From positions 1 through 6,648 of the IMG/VR virus record IMGVR_UViG_2526164689_000017: a stretch of 6,648 nt of DNA; one strand, given 5' to 3'. The first letter of the stretch is position 1, and each line of letters starts with the position of its first letter. The stretch is from a virus. Its lineage: Duplodnaviria; Heunggongvirae; Uroviricota; Caudoviricetes. Position numbers and translations under genes: made by a program. Of the stretch, positions 239 through 6,039 are shown piece by piece. The notes below the pieces were generated by a model. It was not told the origin of the DNA. It ran no database searches and saw only the letters and a program-made list of their open reading frames with translations.

Positions 239-265
239 AATAAAAAAGGCGTCATTTCTGACGCC
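239..265 (-). terminator. Rho-independent terminator downstream of J
   Basis: Perfect 7-bp inverted repeat ggcgtca (248-254) / tgacgcc (259-265) with a 4-nt loop. On the minus strand it reads GGCGUCA-GAAA-UGACGCC followed by UUUUUUAUU (plus 239-247 aataaaaaa). It lies between the J stop (284-286) and the lom start (217). Confidence 0.7.
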
Positions 266-283
266 CGTTCTGGGTTATAAAAT

Positions 284-3200
284 TCAGCTGATACTGATAC
301 CTGCTGTGGATTTTTTCATCACCACAACCAGCAGATCGCTGATACTGGTTGTTGGTGTCCAGTTATTCGCTCCTGATGAAGATACGGTGAATGTCAGTGT
401 CAGCGTCCCCTGTCCGGCAGGCATATCTATAACTGAGGAAAATACGCCCTGAACATCCGTCGTGGACTGATTAAAAATCTCCTGACCATTGCGGGTCACT
501 CTTAACCGGCAGGTTGAATACCAGTATGACTGTTGGTTATTACTGTTGAAATTCTCATGCTTACCACCGCGGAATAACACTGGCGGTATCATGACCTGCC
601 GGTCAAACTTCTGATCATCACTGATTCTTACCGTGATGGTGCCACTGGCATAAGTGCTCGTGCGGGGGAAAGACTTGCTGACCGTTTTGACAATATCGCC
701 TTCAATCTGGTTGGCTGACAGTTTCCCCTTAATCTGACAGTTCTCATTAATCGTGACGTTGTTGAGCGTCCCTGAGTTCGCATTCACACTGCCACTGATA
801 TCCGCATTTTTCGCCGTCAGTCGCCCGTCCGGCGTCAGGGAAAATGCCGGAGGATTGCCGGATGACGTGATGCTCACCGCAAACAGTCGTTTCAGGAACA
901 CGTCGTTCATGAACAGCTGATTCCCCTGCGCCACAAATAACGGCGTGCTGTTGCCGCTCTCCGGATTTATCATCGCGATACGGTCAGCCAGCAGCAGTAT
1001 GTTGCTCAGTGGCTGGCCATCAGTATCCTCAATCCCTGCACCAATCCCGGCCACATAGGGAATGCCGTCTTTCGTTTTTTGAACCTTCAGCATGTACAGC
1101 GCAGCCAGGTCATCATTTGTGTCCTTCTGCACGCGCTGTATCTGCTGAATGGTGGCGCTCTGGTCTTCCAGCGTTTTACTGACCGTCTGTGTGATTTCAT
1201 TGCGGGTTTCTGTGATGGTGGTCTGCATTTCCGCCATCTCGTCCTTCAGCTGACTGTTGTCAATCTCTGCCCACAGCGCCTCTGCCAGATGCGTTTTTCC
1301 TATCTTTTCCCGGAAAAGTTCCAGATAGCCCGCAGCATCATTGCTCGCCCGTCCACTGGCTTCCACAAAAGCAGATTTACCCACCAGGTTGACGCTGCGC
1401 ACATAAAACCAGAAATCCTTTCCGGGCTTAATGTGCGGACCGGAGACACTCCACTGACTGCCGGTCCCCAGATAACGGGCAGAGGTTTCCACCTGTGCGG
1501 CGTCTGCAATTTTTGCCTCCGAAAACCAGAACTCAAACTGCACCGTCGGGTCATAAATGGTCAGTTTCGGGACTGCCGTTATCTGAAAATACCCCGGCGT
1601 CAGTTCAACACCGGCAGGCGCTGCCGGTGCGTTAATCCGGAACGTGGTGGTGGCGGGTTCGCCCTGCTGGCCATAGCTGTTAATCGCCCTGACCGTCAGG
1701 GTGTATTCCCCGAGAGGCAGGCCACTGAAACGGTGCTCCGTATCGGCAGTGATGGCGGTGGTCACCAGACGGCTGTCTTCTCCGCTTCCGCTGGTCAGGC
1801 GCAGACTGAAGCGCACACCCTTCACCACCCGCGGCGTGTCCCATTTCGCCTGTGCCAGATACTGACCGTCAGCCGCGCTCACCTCCACCGTCAGGTGCTG
1901 CACTGCCGGAGGGATGACGCTGTTCAGGGTGCCGCTCTGGTCGCTGTCAAAGTGCGCCCCGTTATCCACGATGGCTTCTTTTTCCGGTACGTGCTGCACT
2001 GCCGTGATGGCAAAGGTGCTGTCCGTGTTTTCCCGGATGGAGACACAGCGGAACAGGCGACGACGCAGTGACGGCAGGGAGAGTCCCCACACACCGTATG
2101 TCTCCACACCATCAGGCAGGGTGCTGACCTGTATCCGGTCCGGCGCGGGGTGTGCAGTGATGGCCACGCTCACCGGCTTACCGCTGCCGTTAATCAGGTT
2201 CACCGTGGCGGCACCTGTCTCCGGCAGGGTCACCTCACGGTCCAGTGTCAGGGTGCGGCTGGCGGCATCGATGGACAGGATACGTCCGCCGGTCATGGTC
2301 CCGGCATAGTCGTTATCACAGATTTCAATAATGTCTCCGGGTGTGTGACGCAGCCCCTGTGACCCGAGCGTGAAATCCACCGTCTGCGTTTCCAGCAGTC
2401 CGGTCTTTATCACCCACAGCCCGGCACGGTGGGCCTGACCGCGACTGGTGCAACCGAACGCATCCATCTTCAGCAGGTTGCGCCCGTAGCGCAGTATGGC
2501 TTCCGGGTCTTCCACCAGTTCCGTGGAGGTCTGCCAGCCGTTCTGCGGGTCGGTGTAATTCACCTCCACCGCCGTGTGGCGGTCCTTCAGGGCGCTGAAG
2601 CTGTAGCGAAACCCCACGCCGTTATCATCCACCACCACATCGCAGTTGGTGTACGGCCACACCACATCCGACGGGCGGTCCTGAACGAACGTCAGCGTCT
2701 GGCCGTTCCATACCGGCATACAGCGCATCGCCGAGCAGAAATCACTGAGAACGTCCCACGCCTTACGCTGTTGTGACAGGTACGCATTAAAGGTCATCCG
2801 CGGCTCTGTGCCCCCGAAGCCATCCGGGACACGCTGGTCACAGTACTGCCCGATGGCATACAGCGCCCATTTGTCCACGTCCGCGGCCCCCAGGCGTTTC
2901 CCCATCCCGTAGCGCGGGTGGGTCAGCATGTCCCACAGGCACCAGGCCGGGTTGTTGCTGTATGCCGGTTTCAGACTGCCGTCCCAGATACCACTGTACG
3001 TGCGTTTTTCCGGGTCATAGTTTGACGGCACCTGAATAATGCGACCGCGGATATGGTAGTTCACCGTCATCTGCTGACCGCCAAACTGCTCCGCATCCAC
3101 CTGCAGCCCCACAATCGCCGTGTTCGGGTAGCACTGTTTCACATCGATGATTTCGGTGTATGACGACCAGAGCGTCTTATTCTGCAGCTGGTCCGTGGTG

Positions 3201-3763
3201 CTGTCCGCCGTCTCCCTGACCATCCGGATGTTAAAGGGGCGCTCAGGCAGATTATCCAGAATCACCGAAGCGAGGAACTGTGAGGTGGTCTTGCCGTTAA
3301 TGGTGACATCCTTTTCCGTCACCCAGTTACCGTTACGCTGCAGCTGAATCAGCAGGCGGACGGATGCCGGGTTACGGTCACCCTGTGAGGTGGTCTGCAC
3401 CAGTGACTGCACCCCGAAGGTAACCCGCAGGCGGTCAATGTTCGCGGACGTAATGGTGCGCGTCACCGGCTTTGCCTTCGTCACTTCCACGCCCAGTGCG
3501 GTTTCAGAGCCGGATGACTCAAAACCTTCCGGCGGTGTCTGCTCCTGCTCCCCGGCGCGCCAGACCGCTGTCACACCGTGTATCACAGGATTACCGTCCG
3601 TGTCCGTCAGCGGGGTTTTGTTCACCAGAATACTCTGCAGCCCCTTCACCGGACCTTCCACCGGTCCCTCACCGATGGCGTCAATCACGCTCATCATCTG
3701 CGTGGACTTAAGATTGTCCTTTGCCTCAACCGGCGTGTGCGCCTTGCCGCCACCTTTACCCAC
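284..3763 (-). CDS. J: Central tail fibre / host specificity protein J (tip attachment protein), 1159 aa
   Basis: The track ORF begins [39 protein letters not shown], near-identical to the lambda J N-terminus as I recall it, with similarity continuing through the body (for example [50 protein letters not shown]). Start is GTG at 3761-3763 with GGAGAGGGGGA a few nt upstream on the minus strand. Stop is TGA at 284-286. Confidence 0.97.
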
Positions 3764-3798
3764 TCTGTCCCCCTCTCCTGTCTGATGTCTGAATCTGT

Positions 3799-3963
3799 TT
3801 ATGCCCCAAAAACGACAGGCACCCCGGAGGGTGCCTGTGTCATGACGGAATAAAATTTCTGAATTTCTTCACATTTTCTGTACGCCCCGTGGCAGATATC
3901 ATTCCCGGGCGTTACAGTTTTTTCGGGCCAATAAAAACAAAACCCCCTGTGGTTAATCTTCAT
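3799..3963 (-). CDS. Hypothetical small protein (54 aa) in the I-J spacer; weak candidate
   Basis: My own translation of the minus strand: ATG at 3961-3963, TAA at 3799-3801, giving [54 protein letters not shown]. Only a weak GGGA-type ribosome-binding site; uses rare AGG/AGA/GGG codons. The terminator hairpin at 3815-3838 lies inside its last 13 codons, so termination would precede the stop codon, which argues against a real gene. Confidence 0.15.
3803..3838 (-). terminator. Terminator-like hairpin between I and J, minus-strand orientation
   Basis: Perfect 10-bp inverted repeat acaggcaccc (3815-3824) / gggtgcctgt (3829-3838) with loop cgga. On the minus strand the hairpin is followed by CGUUUUUGGGG (plus 3804-3814). 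Whether it terminates or acts as a stability or processing element cannot be told from sequence. Confidence 0.5.
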
Positions 3964-3970
3964 TTTCTGT

Positions 3971-4003
3971 TCCCGCAGCCTCCATACACTGCGGGATTTT
4001 TTT
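3971..4003 (+). terminator. Terminator-like hairpin with U-tract in plus-strand orientation, just 3' of the I stop codon
   Basis: 8-bp stem tcccgcag (3971-3978) / ctgcggga (3989-3996) with a 10-nt loop cctccataca, followed on the plus strand by seven T (3997-4003). On the minus strand the tract is A-rich upstream of the stem, so the signal is plus-oriented, antisense to the tail operon. Confidence 0.4.
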
Positions 4004-4008
4004 ATGCT

Positions 4009-4689
4009 TTACCCCTGCCGCCCGATAACCACCACCTTCCCGCCACCACCTTCATCACGGGTGCTGATGTCCTGGGAGATTCGCCGGGAGCCAACCAGCA
4101 TTTCACCGTAAGGCACCGGCATCGGGTTCCCCTGGGCAATCATGTTATCCAGCGAGGAAAAGTACGTGTTCTGTCTGCCGTTATCCGTTGCCCTGTATTC
4201 CGGTGTTTTTGGCTTCGGGGCAAGCATCTGTGCCACACCACCCAGTATCATGCTGGCCCCCAGTGAAAACAGCATCGTGGTGGCAGAAAAACCACCGGCT
4301 GCCAGGGCTGAACCCCATAACGCCATTGATGCCCCGGCCGTGAAGAACGACCCCACGATGGCTGCCGCCCCCAGCACAATCTGCAGTCCGCCCTTTCCGG
4401 CTCCGGCCAGTCGCGGCACAATATGGATGACCGCCCCCTCACCCAGAGGTTCGTGAAGACGGGCGTACACCGCCTCCGGTGCCGTGTCCTCACCGCGAAT
4501 ACGTATCTGGTACCAGCCTTCGTTCATCTGACGGCGGAATCCCGGCACCTGTAACGACAGCGCCCGGATGGCTTCCGCTGCCGTGTTCACATACAGGCTG
4601 AGGCGGCGGCCAAATCGTTGCAAATCCCCGTGAAGGCAGATGCGTGCCAGTGGCGGTGACGCCAGACAGAATGCGTTCGTCGTTGCCAT
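4009..4689 (-). CDS. I: Tail assembly protein I, 226 aa
   Basis: The track ORF begins MATTNAFCLASPPLARICLHGDLQRFGRRLSLYVNTAAEAIRAL and ends in a Gly/Ala-rich hydrophobic segment, closely matching lambda I as recalled. Stop is TAA at 4009-4011. The start overlaps the 3' end of K by 103 nt in another frame. Confidence 0.93.
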   Translation of the reverse strand: MATTNAFCLASPPLARICLHGDLQRFGRRLSLYVNTAAEAIRALSLQVPGFRRQMNEGWYQIRIRGEDTAPEAVYARLHEPLGEGAVIHIVPRLAGAGKGGLQIVLGAAAIVGSFFTAGASMALWGSALAAGGFSATTMLFSLGASMILGGVAQMLAPKPKTPEYRATDNGRQNTYFSSLDNMIAQGNPMPVPYGEMLVGSRRISQDISTRDEGGGGKVVVIGRQG

Positions 4690-5340: not shown

Positions 5341-6039
5341 TTACTGCGAAAGTTTATTAATGGAAAGGAAACCGCCAAAATTAGCCACCATGCCGCGCAT
5401 CTCACACCCGCGCATGCACTTGCTGCATCTGTCCTTACGGATATCGGTGGTGGGTTTATCGAACTCATCCGCCACAGCCCCGCCCGTGTAACCACACTCA
5501 TCAGAGCGGTAGGTCCACATACAGGTATTCGCCAGCATAATGCGACCGGGAAACAGCGCTCCGTCCGTCTCCGTCGGTGTTGCCAGCACAAACGAGGCTG
5601 TCATGGCCGTCAGCTCTGACATCTGCTCCACCACCCAGCGGTCGCTCAGCTCCTGCTCCGGGTCCGCTTCCGGATTGCCCGCCACAAAATTCACCGCATC
5701 CAGAAAACGGGCATACACCCGGCGGCGGACCACCGTGGCCCCCACCAGGCTCTGCAGGTCCTCCGCCATCCCGGTGACCAGACCAAACAGATTCGACACC
5801 GTCAGCGACGGGCGGGCACTGCTGCCCTTCCCGTTCATCTCAAAGCCACTGCCGTCAATCGGGTATGCCTGGTACTTCCGCCCCTGCCAGGTCACCGGCT
5901 CCCCTTTTTCATTCAGCTCATTACAGAAAAAATACCGCTCACCACCCTGGGCCTTCAGGTCAATTTCCCAGAGCACCACCCGCGGTGACTGCTCTGATTT
6001 AACCGACTCGTTCAGGCTTTCCCCGTGAATATGCTGCAT
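5341..6039 (-). CDS. L: Minor tail protein L, 232 aa
   Basis: The track ORF starts MQHIHGESLNESVKSEQSPRVVLWEIDLKAQGGERYFFCNELNEKGEPVTWQGRKYQ and ends FGGFLSINKLSQ, closely matching lambda L as recalled. The ATG overlaps the M stop as ATGA. Confidence 0.95.
   Translation of the reverse strand: MQHIHGESLNESVKSEQSPRVVLWEIDLKAQGGERYFFCNELNEKGEPVTWQGRKYQAYPIDGSGFEMNGKGSSARPSLTVSNLFGLVTGMAEDLQSLVGATVVRRRVYARFLDAVNFVAGNPEADPEQELSDRWVVEQMSELTAMTASFVLATPTETDGALFPGRIMLANTCMWTYRSDECGYTGGAVADEFDKPTTDIRKDRCSKCMRGCEMRGMVANFGGFLSINKLSQ

What the first reader, a model, noticed from the sequence alone, without database searches (positions are those of the whole stretch)
3971..4003. Plus-strand oriented terminator abutting the I stop codon, antisense to the tail operon
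The stem-loop followed by seven T is a terminator signal only for transcription on the plus strand, which is antisense to every gene in this window. It implies either a small plus-strand transcript originating in the 3840-3970 segment or antisense transcription across J ending here. I found no convincing sigma70 promoter for it, so an sRNA is only a possibility.
Basis: inference. Interest (0 to 1): 0.45.

Follow-up and report, generated by a model that had tools for sequence, protein, structure and literature searches.

The report
Terminator of a prophage small RNA
The hairpin plus seven T is real and is the transcription stop of a small regulatory RNA gene, of a family already detected experimentally (EcOnc22-24 in EHEC, PasB in EPEC), that sits backwards between tail genes I and J of Shiga-toxin-type prophages; this copy is an unannotated variant, so the find is sound but not a new kind of thing.

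Summary
Observation confirmed. An 8-bp stem (3971-3978/3989-3996), a 10-nt loop and T7 (3997-4003) lie 5 nt from the stop codon of I. The hairpin folds at -13.9 kcal/mol (z = -5). None of 200 shuffles of the window gave a terminator this strict.

Interpretation supported, in its first alternative: a short plus-strand transcript. The 245-nt I-J spacer is homologous and syntenic to two loci with published RNA data.
- PasB of EPEC E2348/69: 83 nt, Northern-validated, Hfq-dependent, 37 RIL-seq partners. Its mapped 3' end is the last T of the same T7.
- EcOnc22/23/24 of EHEC Sakai: an Hfq-CRAC peak, ~85 nt on Northern, destabilised in Δhfq. The published probe hybridises just 5' of the same hairpin, on the strand antisense to the tail genes.

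By homology the window RNA is about 3923-4003 (81 nt). It has an A-rich 5' part, a conserved single-stranded GUUAAUCUUC, then the terminator.

Across 24 variants the upstream block, GUUAAUCUUC, the hairpin's 3' arm (its 5' arm less so) and the U-tract are conserved. The 5' body is swapped in modules.

The RNA is absent from Rfam and RefSeq annotation. I found no paper linking PasB to EcOnc22-24. Targets are unknown. This is a new member of a known kind, of modest interest.

The parts
3971..3996 (+). Terminator hairpin: 8-bp stem UCCCGCAG/CUGCGGGA with a 10-nt loop.
   Evidence: The 3' arm is 100% conserved in 24 variants and the loop is free to vary (47% mean identity). It is the only conserved structure in the RNAalifold consensus.
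3997..4003 (+). U7 tract, the 3' end of the sRNA. It ends 5 nt before the I stop codon.
   Evidence: T6-T9 is present in all 24 variants. The mapped 3' end of PasB is the last T of the homologous T7.
3923..4003 (+). Predicted sRNA of 81 nt, a homologue of PasB / EcOnc22-24. The 5' end is inferred, with a range of about 3909-3925.
   Evidence: Alignment to the PasB and EcOnc22 loci. PasB end coordinates come from Table S6 of PMC8550237. Folding gives an unstructured 5' part plus the terminator.
3930..3943 (+). A-rich stretch AAUAAAAACAAAAC (four consecutive A-R-N triplets) in the variable 5' module. A possible Hfq distal-face site or part of the target-recognition region.
   Evidence: Sequence. 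The 5' body 3924-3951 has only 58% mean pairwise identity across variants, falling into about 4-5 modules. The function is inferred.
3952..3961 (+). Conserved single-stranded GUUAAUCUUC followed by a U-rich linker. A candidate seed or Hfq proximal-face site.
   Evidence: 92% mean identity across 24 variants, against 44-58% for its flanks. It is unpaired in the consensus fold. Zhu et al. [quoted passage not shown] The EcOnc22/23/24 probe covers it.
3913..3918 (+). Candidate -10 (TACAGT) of promoter P_B. Its -35 is TGGCAG at 3890-3895 with a 17-nt spacer, and the predicted start is 3924/3925.
   Evidence: Inference. TA...T with an exact 17-nt spacing to T(T/G)G... holds in every variant type read, including Sakai Sp15 and the divergent type. 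The predicted start matches the mapped 5' end of PasB. This -10 is retained in the sodC-carrying loci. Both hexamers are weak (4/6 and 2/6).
3897..3902 (+). Alternative candidate -10 (TATCAT) of promoter P_A. Its -35 is TTCTGT at 3876-3881 with a 15-nt spacer here, 16 nt in the sister variant.
   Evidence: Inference. The aligned hexamers are TATAAT (PasB locus, with TTCACA-16 nt upstream), AATAAT and TATCAT. It would give an RNA of about 94 nt. It is not found by the consensus scan.
3848..3875 (+). Near-invariant A/T-rich block GAATAAAATTTCTGAATTTCTTCACATT upstream of the promoter candidates. It resembles an UP element or a regulator site.
   Evidence: 96% mean and 93% minimum pairwise identity across 24 variants whose neighbouring sequence drops to 41%. 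The function is inferred.
3808..3838 (-). Second hairpin (3838-3815, 10 bp, 7 GC) followed by CGUUUUU on the minus, tail-gene strand. It is an intrinsic-terminator-like site between I and J.
   Evidence: It is conserved in 12 sequence variants with a compensatory C:G<->U:A exchange, and the U-run is always on the tail-gene strand. Its role is unexplained.
4009..4689 (-). Tail assembly gene I. Its stop codon at 4011-4009 abuts the terminator.
   Evidence: RefSeq annotates the identical O26 locus as 'tail assembly protein'.
284..3763 (-). Tail tip / host specificity gene J (GTG start at 3763).

Best explanation
The hairpin plus U7 at 3971-4003 is the Rho-independent terminator of a small non-coding RNA gene. 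The RNA is about 80 nt, roughly 3923-4003 on the plus strand. The gene is inserted moron-like, in reverse orientation, in the I-J spacer of a lambdoid (Stx-phage-type) tail operon.

It belongs to the same family as PasB (EPEC E2348/69) and EcOnc22/23/24 (EHEC Sakai).

By analogy with those RNAs (inferred, not shown here), it is transcribed from its own promoter in the lysogen. The U-rich stretch, terminator hairpin and 3' poly-U bind Hfq. The single-stranded 5' and middle part base-pairs with other transcripts in trans. The conserved GUUAAUCUUC and the variable A-rich module are the likely recognition and Hfq-contact surfaces.

Shown: the structure, the synteny, the sequence homology and the conservation pattern. 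Taken from the literature for homologues: the transcript, its size, Hfq dependence and many RNA partners. Inferred: expression, the 5' end and the targets of this particular variant.
For: Structure.

Synteny and homology with PasB. The I-J spacer of E2348/69 PP6 aligns at 85% mean column identity. The published PasB coordinates (83 nt, antisense to I and J) end on the homologous T7.

PasB is Northern-validated, ranks 15th by interactions (37 partners), and falls log2 -6.8 / -2.4 in Δhfq.

Homology with EcOnc22/23/24.
- The three Sakai I-J spacers are identical to one another. They carry the same block, GTTAATCTTC, hairpin and T7.
- The published Northern probe is the reverse complement of the plus strand immediately 5' of the hairpin.
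- Table S2 gives ~85 nt and 'destabilised' in Δhfq.
- Shifting the old coordinates by the +137-140 nt offset measured on AgvB1 puts the CRAC peaks on the sRNA body.

Conservation pattern typical of an sRNA gene. Across 24 variants from 80 viral contigs the upstream block is 96% identical, GTTAATCTTC 92%, the 3' arm 100% and the T-tract 99%. The loop is 47% and the 5' body 58%. The terminator is the only consensus structure. In one divergent type the stem is replaced by a different perfect stem plus a T-run.

Not coding. The 54-codon minus-strand ORF 3799..3963 loses its ATG in other variants. It is also frameshifted by a C4/C5 indel relative to the nearest variant.

Widespread and multi-copy. 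The spacer has near matches in 786 of 5426 complete E. coli genomes, with a median of 4 and up to 11 places per genome. It also has near matches in 151 phage records, mostly Stx-converting phages. Nothing is annotated under the 25 E. coli genome matches listed, and only the flanking I and J genes, where the record is annotated at all, under the 30 phage matches listed.
Against: There are no expression data for this sequence variant. Its 5' body differs from both PasB and EcOnc22.

Its promoter candidates are weak: P_B has a 2/6 -35 and a 4/6 -10, and P_A has a 2/6 -35. The consensus scan finds no promoter. In this window the C-run is one base shorter than in the commonest sister variant, which shortens the P_A spacer to 15 nt.

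The 5' end is uncertain by about 15 nt.

There is no Rfam family to score against.

Targets of EcOnc22-24 are listed as unknown in the 2021 review.

A duplex test against the ribosome-binding regions of the tail genes in the window was not significant.
Confidence: 0.85

Rival explanations
1. The RNA is the same, but its main job is in cis. Being perfectly complementary to the I-J spacer of the late tail-operon mRNA, it would pair with that transcript, whether from its own prophage or from related superinfecting or co-induced phages. That would trigger processing or modulate J expression. Head-on transcription could also interfere with late transcription.
For: It lies antisense within a polycistronic operon. 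Genomes carry up to 11 related copies whose 3' halves are nearly identical, so cross-talk between prophages is possible. A conserved minus-strand terminator-like hairpin sits just downstream in the operon direction. This suggests the spacer is a regulatory node.
Against: The RNA does not overlap the J ribosome-binding site, which is more than 150 nt away, nor the I coding sequence. PasB was recovered with 37 trans partners on Hfq in uninduced cells. The variable 5' module argues for diversifying trans targets. I found no data on tail-gene expression.
Confidence: 0.15
2. This copy is a decaying or silent gene. The terminator and scaffold are inherited by homology, but the weak promoter means little or no RNA is made from this variant.
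For: The -35 hexamers are poor, no promoter passes the consensus scan, and there is a one-base deletion in the C-run of the promoter region relative to the commonest sister variant. Only the Sp11/14/15 type is listed among Hfq peaks in Sakai.
Against: The window-type variants (V01, V04, V05, V07, V10 and others) are the most frequent class among the 80 loci. They keep the block, the -10 candidates, the GTTAATCTTC motif and the terminator intact. 308 E. coli records carry the spacer at 99% identity or more. I did not establish whether Sakai carries this type at all, so its absence from the CRAC list is uninformative.
Confidence: 0.15
3. The terminator ends long antisense transcription that starts far upstream on the plus strand and crosses J.
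For: The plus-strand hairpin at 3815-3838 lacks a U-tract, so it would not stop such transcription.
Against: Homologous RNAs are ~83-85 nt on Northern blots. The conserved promoter-like elements and invariant block lie 50-150 nt upstream of the terminator. No plus-strand promoter was found inside J apart from one weak consensus hit elsewhere, at 5514.
Confidence: 0.04
4. The hairpin matters on the minus strand, as a 3' stabiliser or RNase III site of the late I mRNA, and the T-run is incidental.
For: The hairpin also forms in the minus-strand RNA and directly follows the I stop codon.
Against: The T6-T9 run on the plus strand is conserved in all 24 variants, including one in which the stem sequence is entirely replaced. 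The published RNAs map to the plus-equivalent strand.
Confidence: 0.03

Closest known systems
PasB, a 'pathogenicity associated small RNA' of EPEC O127:H6 E2348/69, prophage PP6 (Pearl Mizrahi et al. 2021, PMC8550237; Zhu, Shabalina & Storz 2026 preprint)
   Same: It sits in the same slot, the I-J spacer, and in the same antisense orientation. It shares the upstream invariant block, the terminator arms CCCGCAG/CUGCGGG, the U7 and the distance to the I stop codon. It has the related motif UUGAUCUUCAU where the window has GUUAAUCUUCAU.
   Different: The 5' body and promoter-proximal sequence are a different module: CGGGCCAAUAAAAACAAAACCCCCUGUG here against GCCCGAGUAACAAAAACAACUCCUUCAC. The loop differs. 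The PasB locus has a near-consensus TTCACA-16-TATAAT that this window lacks. The 2026 survey used blastn with word size 28 and more than 75% query coverage. The longest exact run shared inside the RNA is about 17 nt, so by my inference that survey would not retrieve this variant.
EcOnc22/EcOnc23/EcOnc24 of EHEC O157:H7 Sakai, prophages Sp15 (Stx1), Sp14 and Sp11 (Tree et al. 2014, PMC4104026)
   Same: Same slot, strand, block, GUUAAUCUUCAU motif, terminator and U7. The J-proximal half of the spacer is almost identical to the window.
   Different: It has a different promoter-proximal segment and a shorter 5' body (GAUGCCUGAAAAAUAACUCCAUAAC). Its targets are listed as unknown. No paper in the searchable library links EcOnc22-24 with PasB.
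AgvB / AsxR anti-sRNAs and the sRNA dyads at the PR' moron site of EHEC lambdoid prophages
   Same: They are prophage-borne, Hfq-binding, short sRNAs (54-60 nt), carried as morons and present in several prophages per genome.
   Different: They sit at a different site, between the late promoter PR' and the lysis genes, not in the tail operon. There is no sequence similarity: Rfam AgvB RF02702 and AsxR RF02703 give no hit at E<=1 in the window.
Lambda OOP RNA (from my own knowledge, not tested here)
   Same: It is a short (~77 nt) phage RNA with its own promoter and intrinsic terminator, transcribed antisense to neighbouring phage genes.
   Different: OOP overlaps the 3' end of cII and acts in cis through RNase III. 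The RNA here is confined to an intergenic spacer, and its homologues behave as Hfq-dependent trans-acting sRNAs.

Membership tests
Rho-independent (intrinsic) terminator | A stable G+C-rich hairpin immediately followed by a U-tract on the transcribed strand. | tested here: met
   8-bp stem (5 GC pairs), -13.9 kcal/mol, z = -5.04, U7 starting directly after the stem. No such site in 200 shuffles.
Rho-independent (intrinsic) terminator | It actually stops RNA polymerase and generates a 3' end. | not testable with these tools
   Indirect only. The mapped PasB 3' end is the last U of the homologous tract.
PasB / EcOnc22-24 sRNA family (I-J spacer sRNA) | Located in the spacer between tail genes I and J and transcribed antisense to them. 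| tested here: met
PasB / EcOnc22-24 sRNA family (I-J spacer sRNA) | Sequence homology of the 3' scaffold: GUUAAUCUUC-type motif, CCCGCAG/CUGCGGG stem and U6-9. | tested here: met
PasB / EcOnc22-24 sRNA family (I-J spacer sRNA) | A shared upstream region: the invariant A/T-rich block and positionally conserved -10 candidates. | tested here: met
   Promoter activity itself was not tested.
PasB / EcOnc22-24 sRNA family (I-J spacer sRNA) | The same 5' (target-recognition) sequence as PasB or EcOnc22. | tested here: not met
   The 5' body has 58% mean pairwise identity across variants and falls into distinct modules. I therefore file it as a family member with a different 5' module, not as PasB or EcOnc22 itself.
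PasB / EcOnc22-24 sRNA family (I-J spacer sRNA) | A stable ~80-85-nt transcript in the lysogen. | not testable with these tools
   Shown only for the homologues.
Hfq-dependent base-pairing sRNA | Hfq-binding module: a U-rich single strand, then a terminator hairpin, then 3' poly-U. Optionally an (ARN)n tract. | tested here: met
   UCUUCAUUUUCUGUU precedes the hairpin, U7 follows it, and AAUAAAAACAAA is present. This is a sequence-level criterion only.
Hfq-dependent base-pairing sRNA | Physical Hfq binding, Hfq-dependent stability and defined targets. | not testable with these tools
   Shown for homologues: CRAC peak and Δhfq destabilisation, RIL-seq partners and log2FC -6.8.
AgvB / AsxR anti-sRNA families (Rfam RF02702, RF02703) | A match to the covariance model and a location at the PR' moron site. 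| tested here: not met
   No Rfam hit at E<=1 in the whole window. The location is the tail operon.

The most novel reading that the evidence does not exclude
The I-J spacer carries a modular sRNA cassette with three parts. They are a near-invariant upstream control block, an invariant Hfq/terminator scaffold (GUUAAUCUUC, hairpin, U7), and between them a 5' module that recombination swaps among at least 4-5 unrelated sequences.

EHEC genomes hold up to 11 copies. They would therefore run a bank of co-regulated sRNAs with different target specificities. Alternatively, the copies would act on each other's tail-operon mRNAs as a prophage-prophage or superinfection interference system. In a subset of phages the same scaffold is fused behind sodC as its 3' end.

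On this reading PasB and EcOnc22-24 are two sampled members of one large, unrecognised family.
Probability: 0.25. Interest if true: 0.55.

Novelty: new member of a known kind. Interest (0 to 1): 0.3.

Why it matters
It shows that a terminator read from raw sequence correctly flags a real sRNA gene that is missing from Rfam and from RefSeq annotation. The spacer has near matches in 786 of 5426 complete E. coli genomes, usually in several copies, and in most lambda-tailed Stx-converting phages.

It also ties together two separately named sRNAs, PasB in EPEC and EcOnc22-24 in EHEC, as one positional and sequence family. It indicates that BLAST-based surveys using long word sizes undercount that family.

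The targets and physiological role of the family are still unknown. Any role in virulence regulation or in phage-phage interactions remains open.

Tried and rejected
(1) Rfam scan of the whole window at E<=1 gave no hit. The element is therefore not AgvB, AsxR, Esr41, STnc100, IsrG or another curated family.

(2) AgvB was my first recalled lead. It was rejected because AgvB and AsxR lie at the PR' moron site.

(3) Consensus sigma-70 scan found nothing in 3764-4008. Promoter candidates come only from comparative alignment and remain inference. I also looked by eye for sigma-54, sigma-E and sigma-32 motifs. None is conserved across variants.

(4) Coding potential. The minus-strand ORF 3799..3963 (54 aa) was rejected. 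Its ATG lies in the GTTAATCTTCAT motif and becomes ACG or is absent (CAAAG) in other variants, and a C4/C5 indel shifts the frame. No consistent frame crosses the invariant block.

(5) A minus-strand promoter that would make a second sRNA ending at the 3838-3815 terminator. I found no acceptable -35/-10 by inspection, and no minus-strand Hfq peak is listed at I-J in Sakai. This is left unexplained rather than excluded.

(6) RNA duplex test of the sRNA's single-stranded part against the start regions of J, I, K, L and M. All z-scores were weaker than -2.

(7) EcOnc54 in Sakai Sp6 was checked as another possible I-J sRNA. It lies between L and K, next to an inserted regulator/antirepressor pair, so it is unrelated.

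(8) A scan of one genome per species (GTDB) with the invariant block gave a single hit. It is a 546-nt contig labelled Asaia platycodi that looks like E. coli prophage DNA plus an IS element. There is thus no evidence for the cassette outside Escherichia at exact-match level.

(9) Old and new Sakai coordinates. Taken at face value, the published peaks fall on the hairpin-2 region. The +137-140 nt offset measured on AgvB1 resolves this.

Full report
**What is there**

The window carries the distal tail genes of a lambdoid prophage, all on the minus strand: J (284-3763), I (4009-4689), then K, L, M and the end of the tape-measure gene.

Between the I stop codon (4011-4009) and the J start (GTG at 3763) lies a 245-nt spacer.

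The reported feature sits at its I-proximal end. On the plus strand it reads UCCCGCAG (3971-3978), a 10-nt loop, CUGCGGGA (3989-3996), then U7 (3997-4003).
- It folds at -13.9 kcal/mol, z = -5.04, and no shuffle among 200 folds as well.
- The stock scan missed it because its loop limit is 8 nt.
- A stricter scan of my own with loops up to 12 nt finds only three such sites in 6.6 kb on either strand, and none in 200 dinucleotide shuffles.
- On the minus strand the hairpin is flanked by A7 upstream and has no U-run downstream. It is therefore a terminator signal for the plus strand only.

**What it belongs to**

The spacer is 100% identical to unannotated spacers in O26, O103 and O157 genomes. 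It has near matches in 786 of 5426 complete E. coli genomes, with a median of 4 and up to 11 places per genome. It also matches 151 phage records, mostly Stx1a/Stx2-converting phages. Rfam has no family for it.

Two published data sets cover homologous spacers.

*PasB.* Pearl Mizrahi et al. 2021 (PMC8550237, Table S6) list PasB of EPEC E2348/69.
- It is at NC_011601.1, minus strand, 1466343 to 1466261, 83 nt, in prophage PP6.
- Its Northern probe is AATCCCGCAGTGATCGCGGAGCT.
- In that genome, I ends at 1466255 and J starts at 1466496, both on the plus strand. PasB therefore lies in the I-J spacer, antisense.
- Its 3' end is the last T of a T7 that follows CCCGCAG...CUGCGGG.
- PasB was validated by Northern blot, falls by log2 6.8 in Δhfq, and has 37 RIL-seq partners.

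*EcOnc22/23/24.* Tree et al. 2014 (PMC4104026, Table S2) list these in Sakai prophages Sp15, Sp14 and Sp11.
- They are on the plus strand, run at ~85 nt, and are destabilised in Δhfq.
- All three published coordinates fall in I-J spacers whose genes are on the minus strand. The three spacers are identical.
- The published probe GGGAGAGAACGATGAAGATTAACTGATGAGTTA is the reverse complement of the plus strand just 5' of the hairpin.
- The published peak coordinates refer to the older Sakai assembly. Using AgvB1 as a ruler, the current record is shifted by +137 to +140 nt. That shift moves the peaks onto the sRNA body.

The window spacer aligns with both loci at 84-85% mean column identity.

**Anatomy by comparison**

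Using the N-terminus of J, I fetched 80 related viral contigs and extracted 24 distinct versions of the spacer. The pattern is mosaic.

| Segment | Window coordinates | Mean pairwise identity |
|---|---|---|
| A/T-rich block GAATAAAA.TTCTGAAT.TCTTCACATT | 3848-3875 | 96% |
| Promoter-proximal segment | 3876-3912 | 70% |
| 5' body of the RNA | 3924-3951 | 58% |
| GTTAATCTTC | 3952-3961 | 92% |
| Loop | 3979-3988 | 47% |
| 3' arm | 3989-3995 | 100% |
| T-tract | 3997-4002 | 99% |

The 5' body falls into about 4-5 unrelated modules.

The consensus fold contains only the terminator hairpin. One divergent type replaces the stem with a different 14-bp stem and keeps the T-run.

Zhu et al. 2026 independently propose that the PasB seed lies just upstream of the terminator. 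That is the conserved motif here.

By homology with the PasB ends, the window RNA is about 3923-4003, or 81 nt. It has:
- an A-rich run with four ARN triplets (3930-3943);
- a U-rich single strand;
- the hairpin and U7.

This is the sequence signature of an Hfq-binding sRNA.

**Promoter**

Two candidates are conserved in position.
- P_B is TGGCAG (3890-3895), a 17-nt spacer, then TACAGT (3913-3918). The 17-nt spacing holds in every type read. It predicts a start at 3924/3925, which equals the mapped 5' end of PasB. Both hexamers are weak.
- P_A has TATCAT (3897-3902), aligned with TATAAT in the PasB locus, where TTCACA lies 16 nt upstream. In the window the -35 is only TTCTGT and the spacer is 15 nt.

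Which one is used is not decided. Both are inference.

**What it is not**
- It is not AgvB or AsxR, which lie at the PR' moron site and have Rfam models that do not match.
- It is not coding. The 54-codon minus-strand ORF loses its start codon and its frame in sister variants.
- It shows no significant pairing with the ribosome-binding regions of the tail genes in the window.

**Mechanism and rivals**

Best supported (0.85 for identity): this is the terminator of a prophage-borne sRNA gene of the PasB/EcOnc22-24 family. By analogy the RNA is made in the lysogen, stabilised by Hfq, and acts by base-pairing in trans. Its targets are unknown.

Rivals:
- a mainly cis or anti-phage role on the complementary late mRNA (0.15; not exclusive with the main explanation);
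- a silent or decaying copy, because of the weak promoter (0.15);
- termination of long antisense transcription across J (0.04);
- a minus-strand mRNA element (0.03).

**Novelty**

The kind is known. This variant is unannotated and has a 5' module different from both published RNAs.

Pearl Mizrahi's table gives no EHEC homologue for PasB. The 2026 preprint never mentions EcOnc and used word size 28. Only one review in the library mentions EcOnc22, and it gives 'unknown' targets. In the literature I could search, the equivalence PasB = EcOnc22-24 family has therefore not been stated.

Interest is modest.

Noticed in passing
window 3808-3838 (minus strand): There is a second strong hairpin (10 bp, 7 GC) followed by CGUUUUU on the tail-gene strand. 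It is an intrinsic-terminator-like site inside the late operon, between I and J, about 45 nt before the J start. It is conserved in 12 variants with a compensatory C:G<->U:A change. Its role is unexplained. It may insulate J, or it may stop divergent transcription from the sRNA promoter.
   Followed up: partly
window 3848-3875: A 28-nt A/T-rich block is 93-100% identical in all 24 spacer variants, although the sequence 3' of it diverges to 41%. It may be an UP element or a regulator binding site for the sRNA promoter. It matches no motif I could name.
   Followed up: partly
L005, L023, L034-L040, L042, L043, L045, L046, L048, L058, L083 (e.g. L005, reverse strand from 1934): In 16 of 80 related contigs a Cu,Zn-superoxide dismutase gene (sodC) sits directly upstream of J in the same antisense orientation. 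It replaces the block and the second hairpin. It is followed, co-oriented, by the sRNA body, hairpin and T-run. The junction is at GAGTTAATG, which keeps the P_B -10 candidate. The sRNA may be a 3'-UTR product of sodC there. The I-J junction looks like a hot spot for antisense morons.
   Followed up: partly
L085 (NZ_BAKW01000035.1, 546 nt) and one IMG/VR locus: An IS3-family element is inserted right after TTCACATTTTCACAAACTGA, in the sRNA promoter region. The only GTDB species-representative hit to the block is this 546-nt contig labelled Asaia platycodi. It reads as E. coli prophage DNA plus an IS element, so it is probably contamination.
   Followed up: partly
window 3779-3792: The heptamer TGTCTGA occurs twice in tandem in the J leader, on the complement of the mRNA. 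One related contig has four copies. This is a small copy-number-variable repeat just upstream of the J Shine-Dalgarno region.
   Followed up: no
window 247-266 (minus strand): A clean intrinsic terminator (8-bp stem, T6) lies 18 nt after the J stop codon.
   Followed up: no
L003, L087, L088 (Sakai Sp15, Sp14, Sp11): The published EcOnc22/23/24 probe differs at three positions (two 1-nt gaps and one mismatch) from all three Sakai copies in NC_002695.2. Coordinates in Tree et al. 2014 are offset by about -137 to -140 nt from the current record at 1.94 Mb.
   Followed up: yes
L086 (Sakai Sp6, 1576553-1578208): In Sp6 a regulator/antirepressor pair is inserted between tail genes L and K. EcOnc54 maps near it. 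I is truncated there and J is replaced by espX7. This is another example of cargo inside the tail operon.
   Followed up: no
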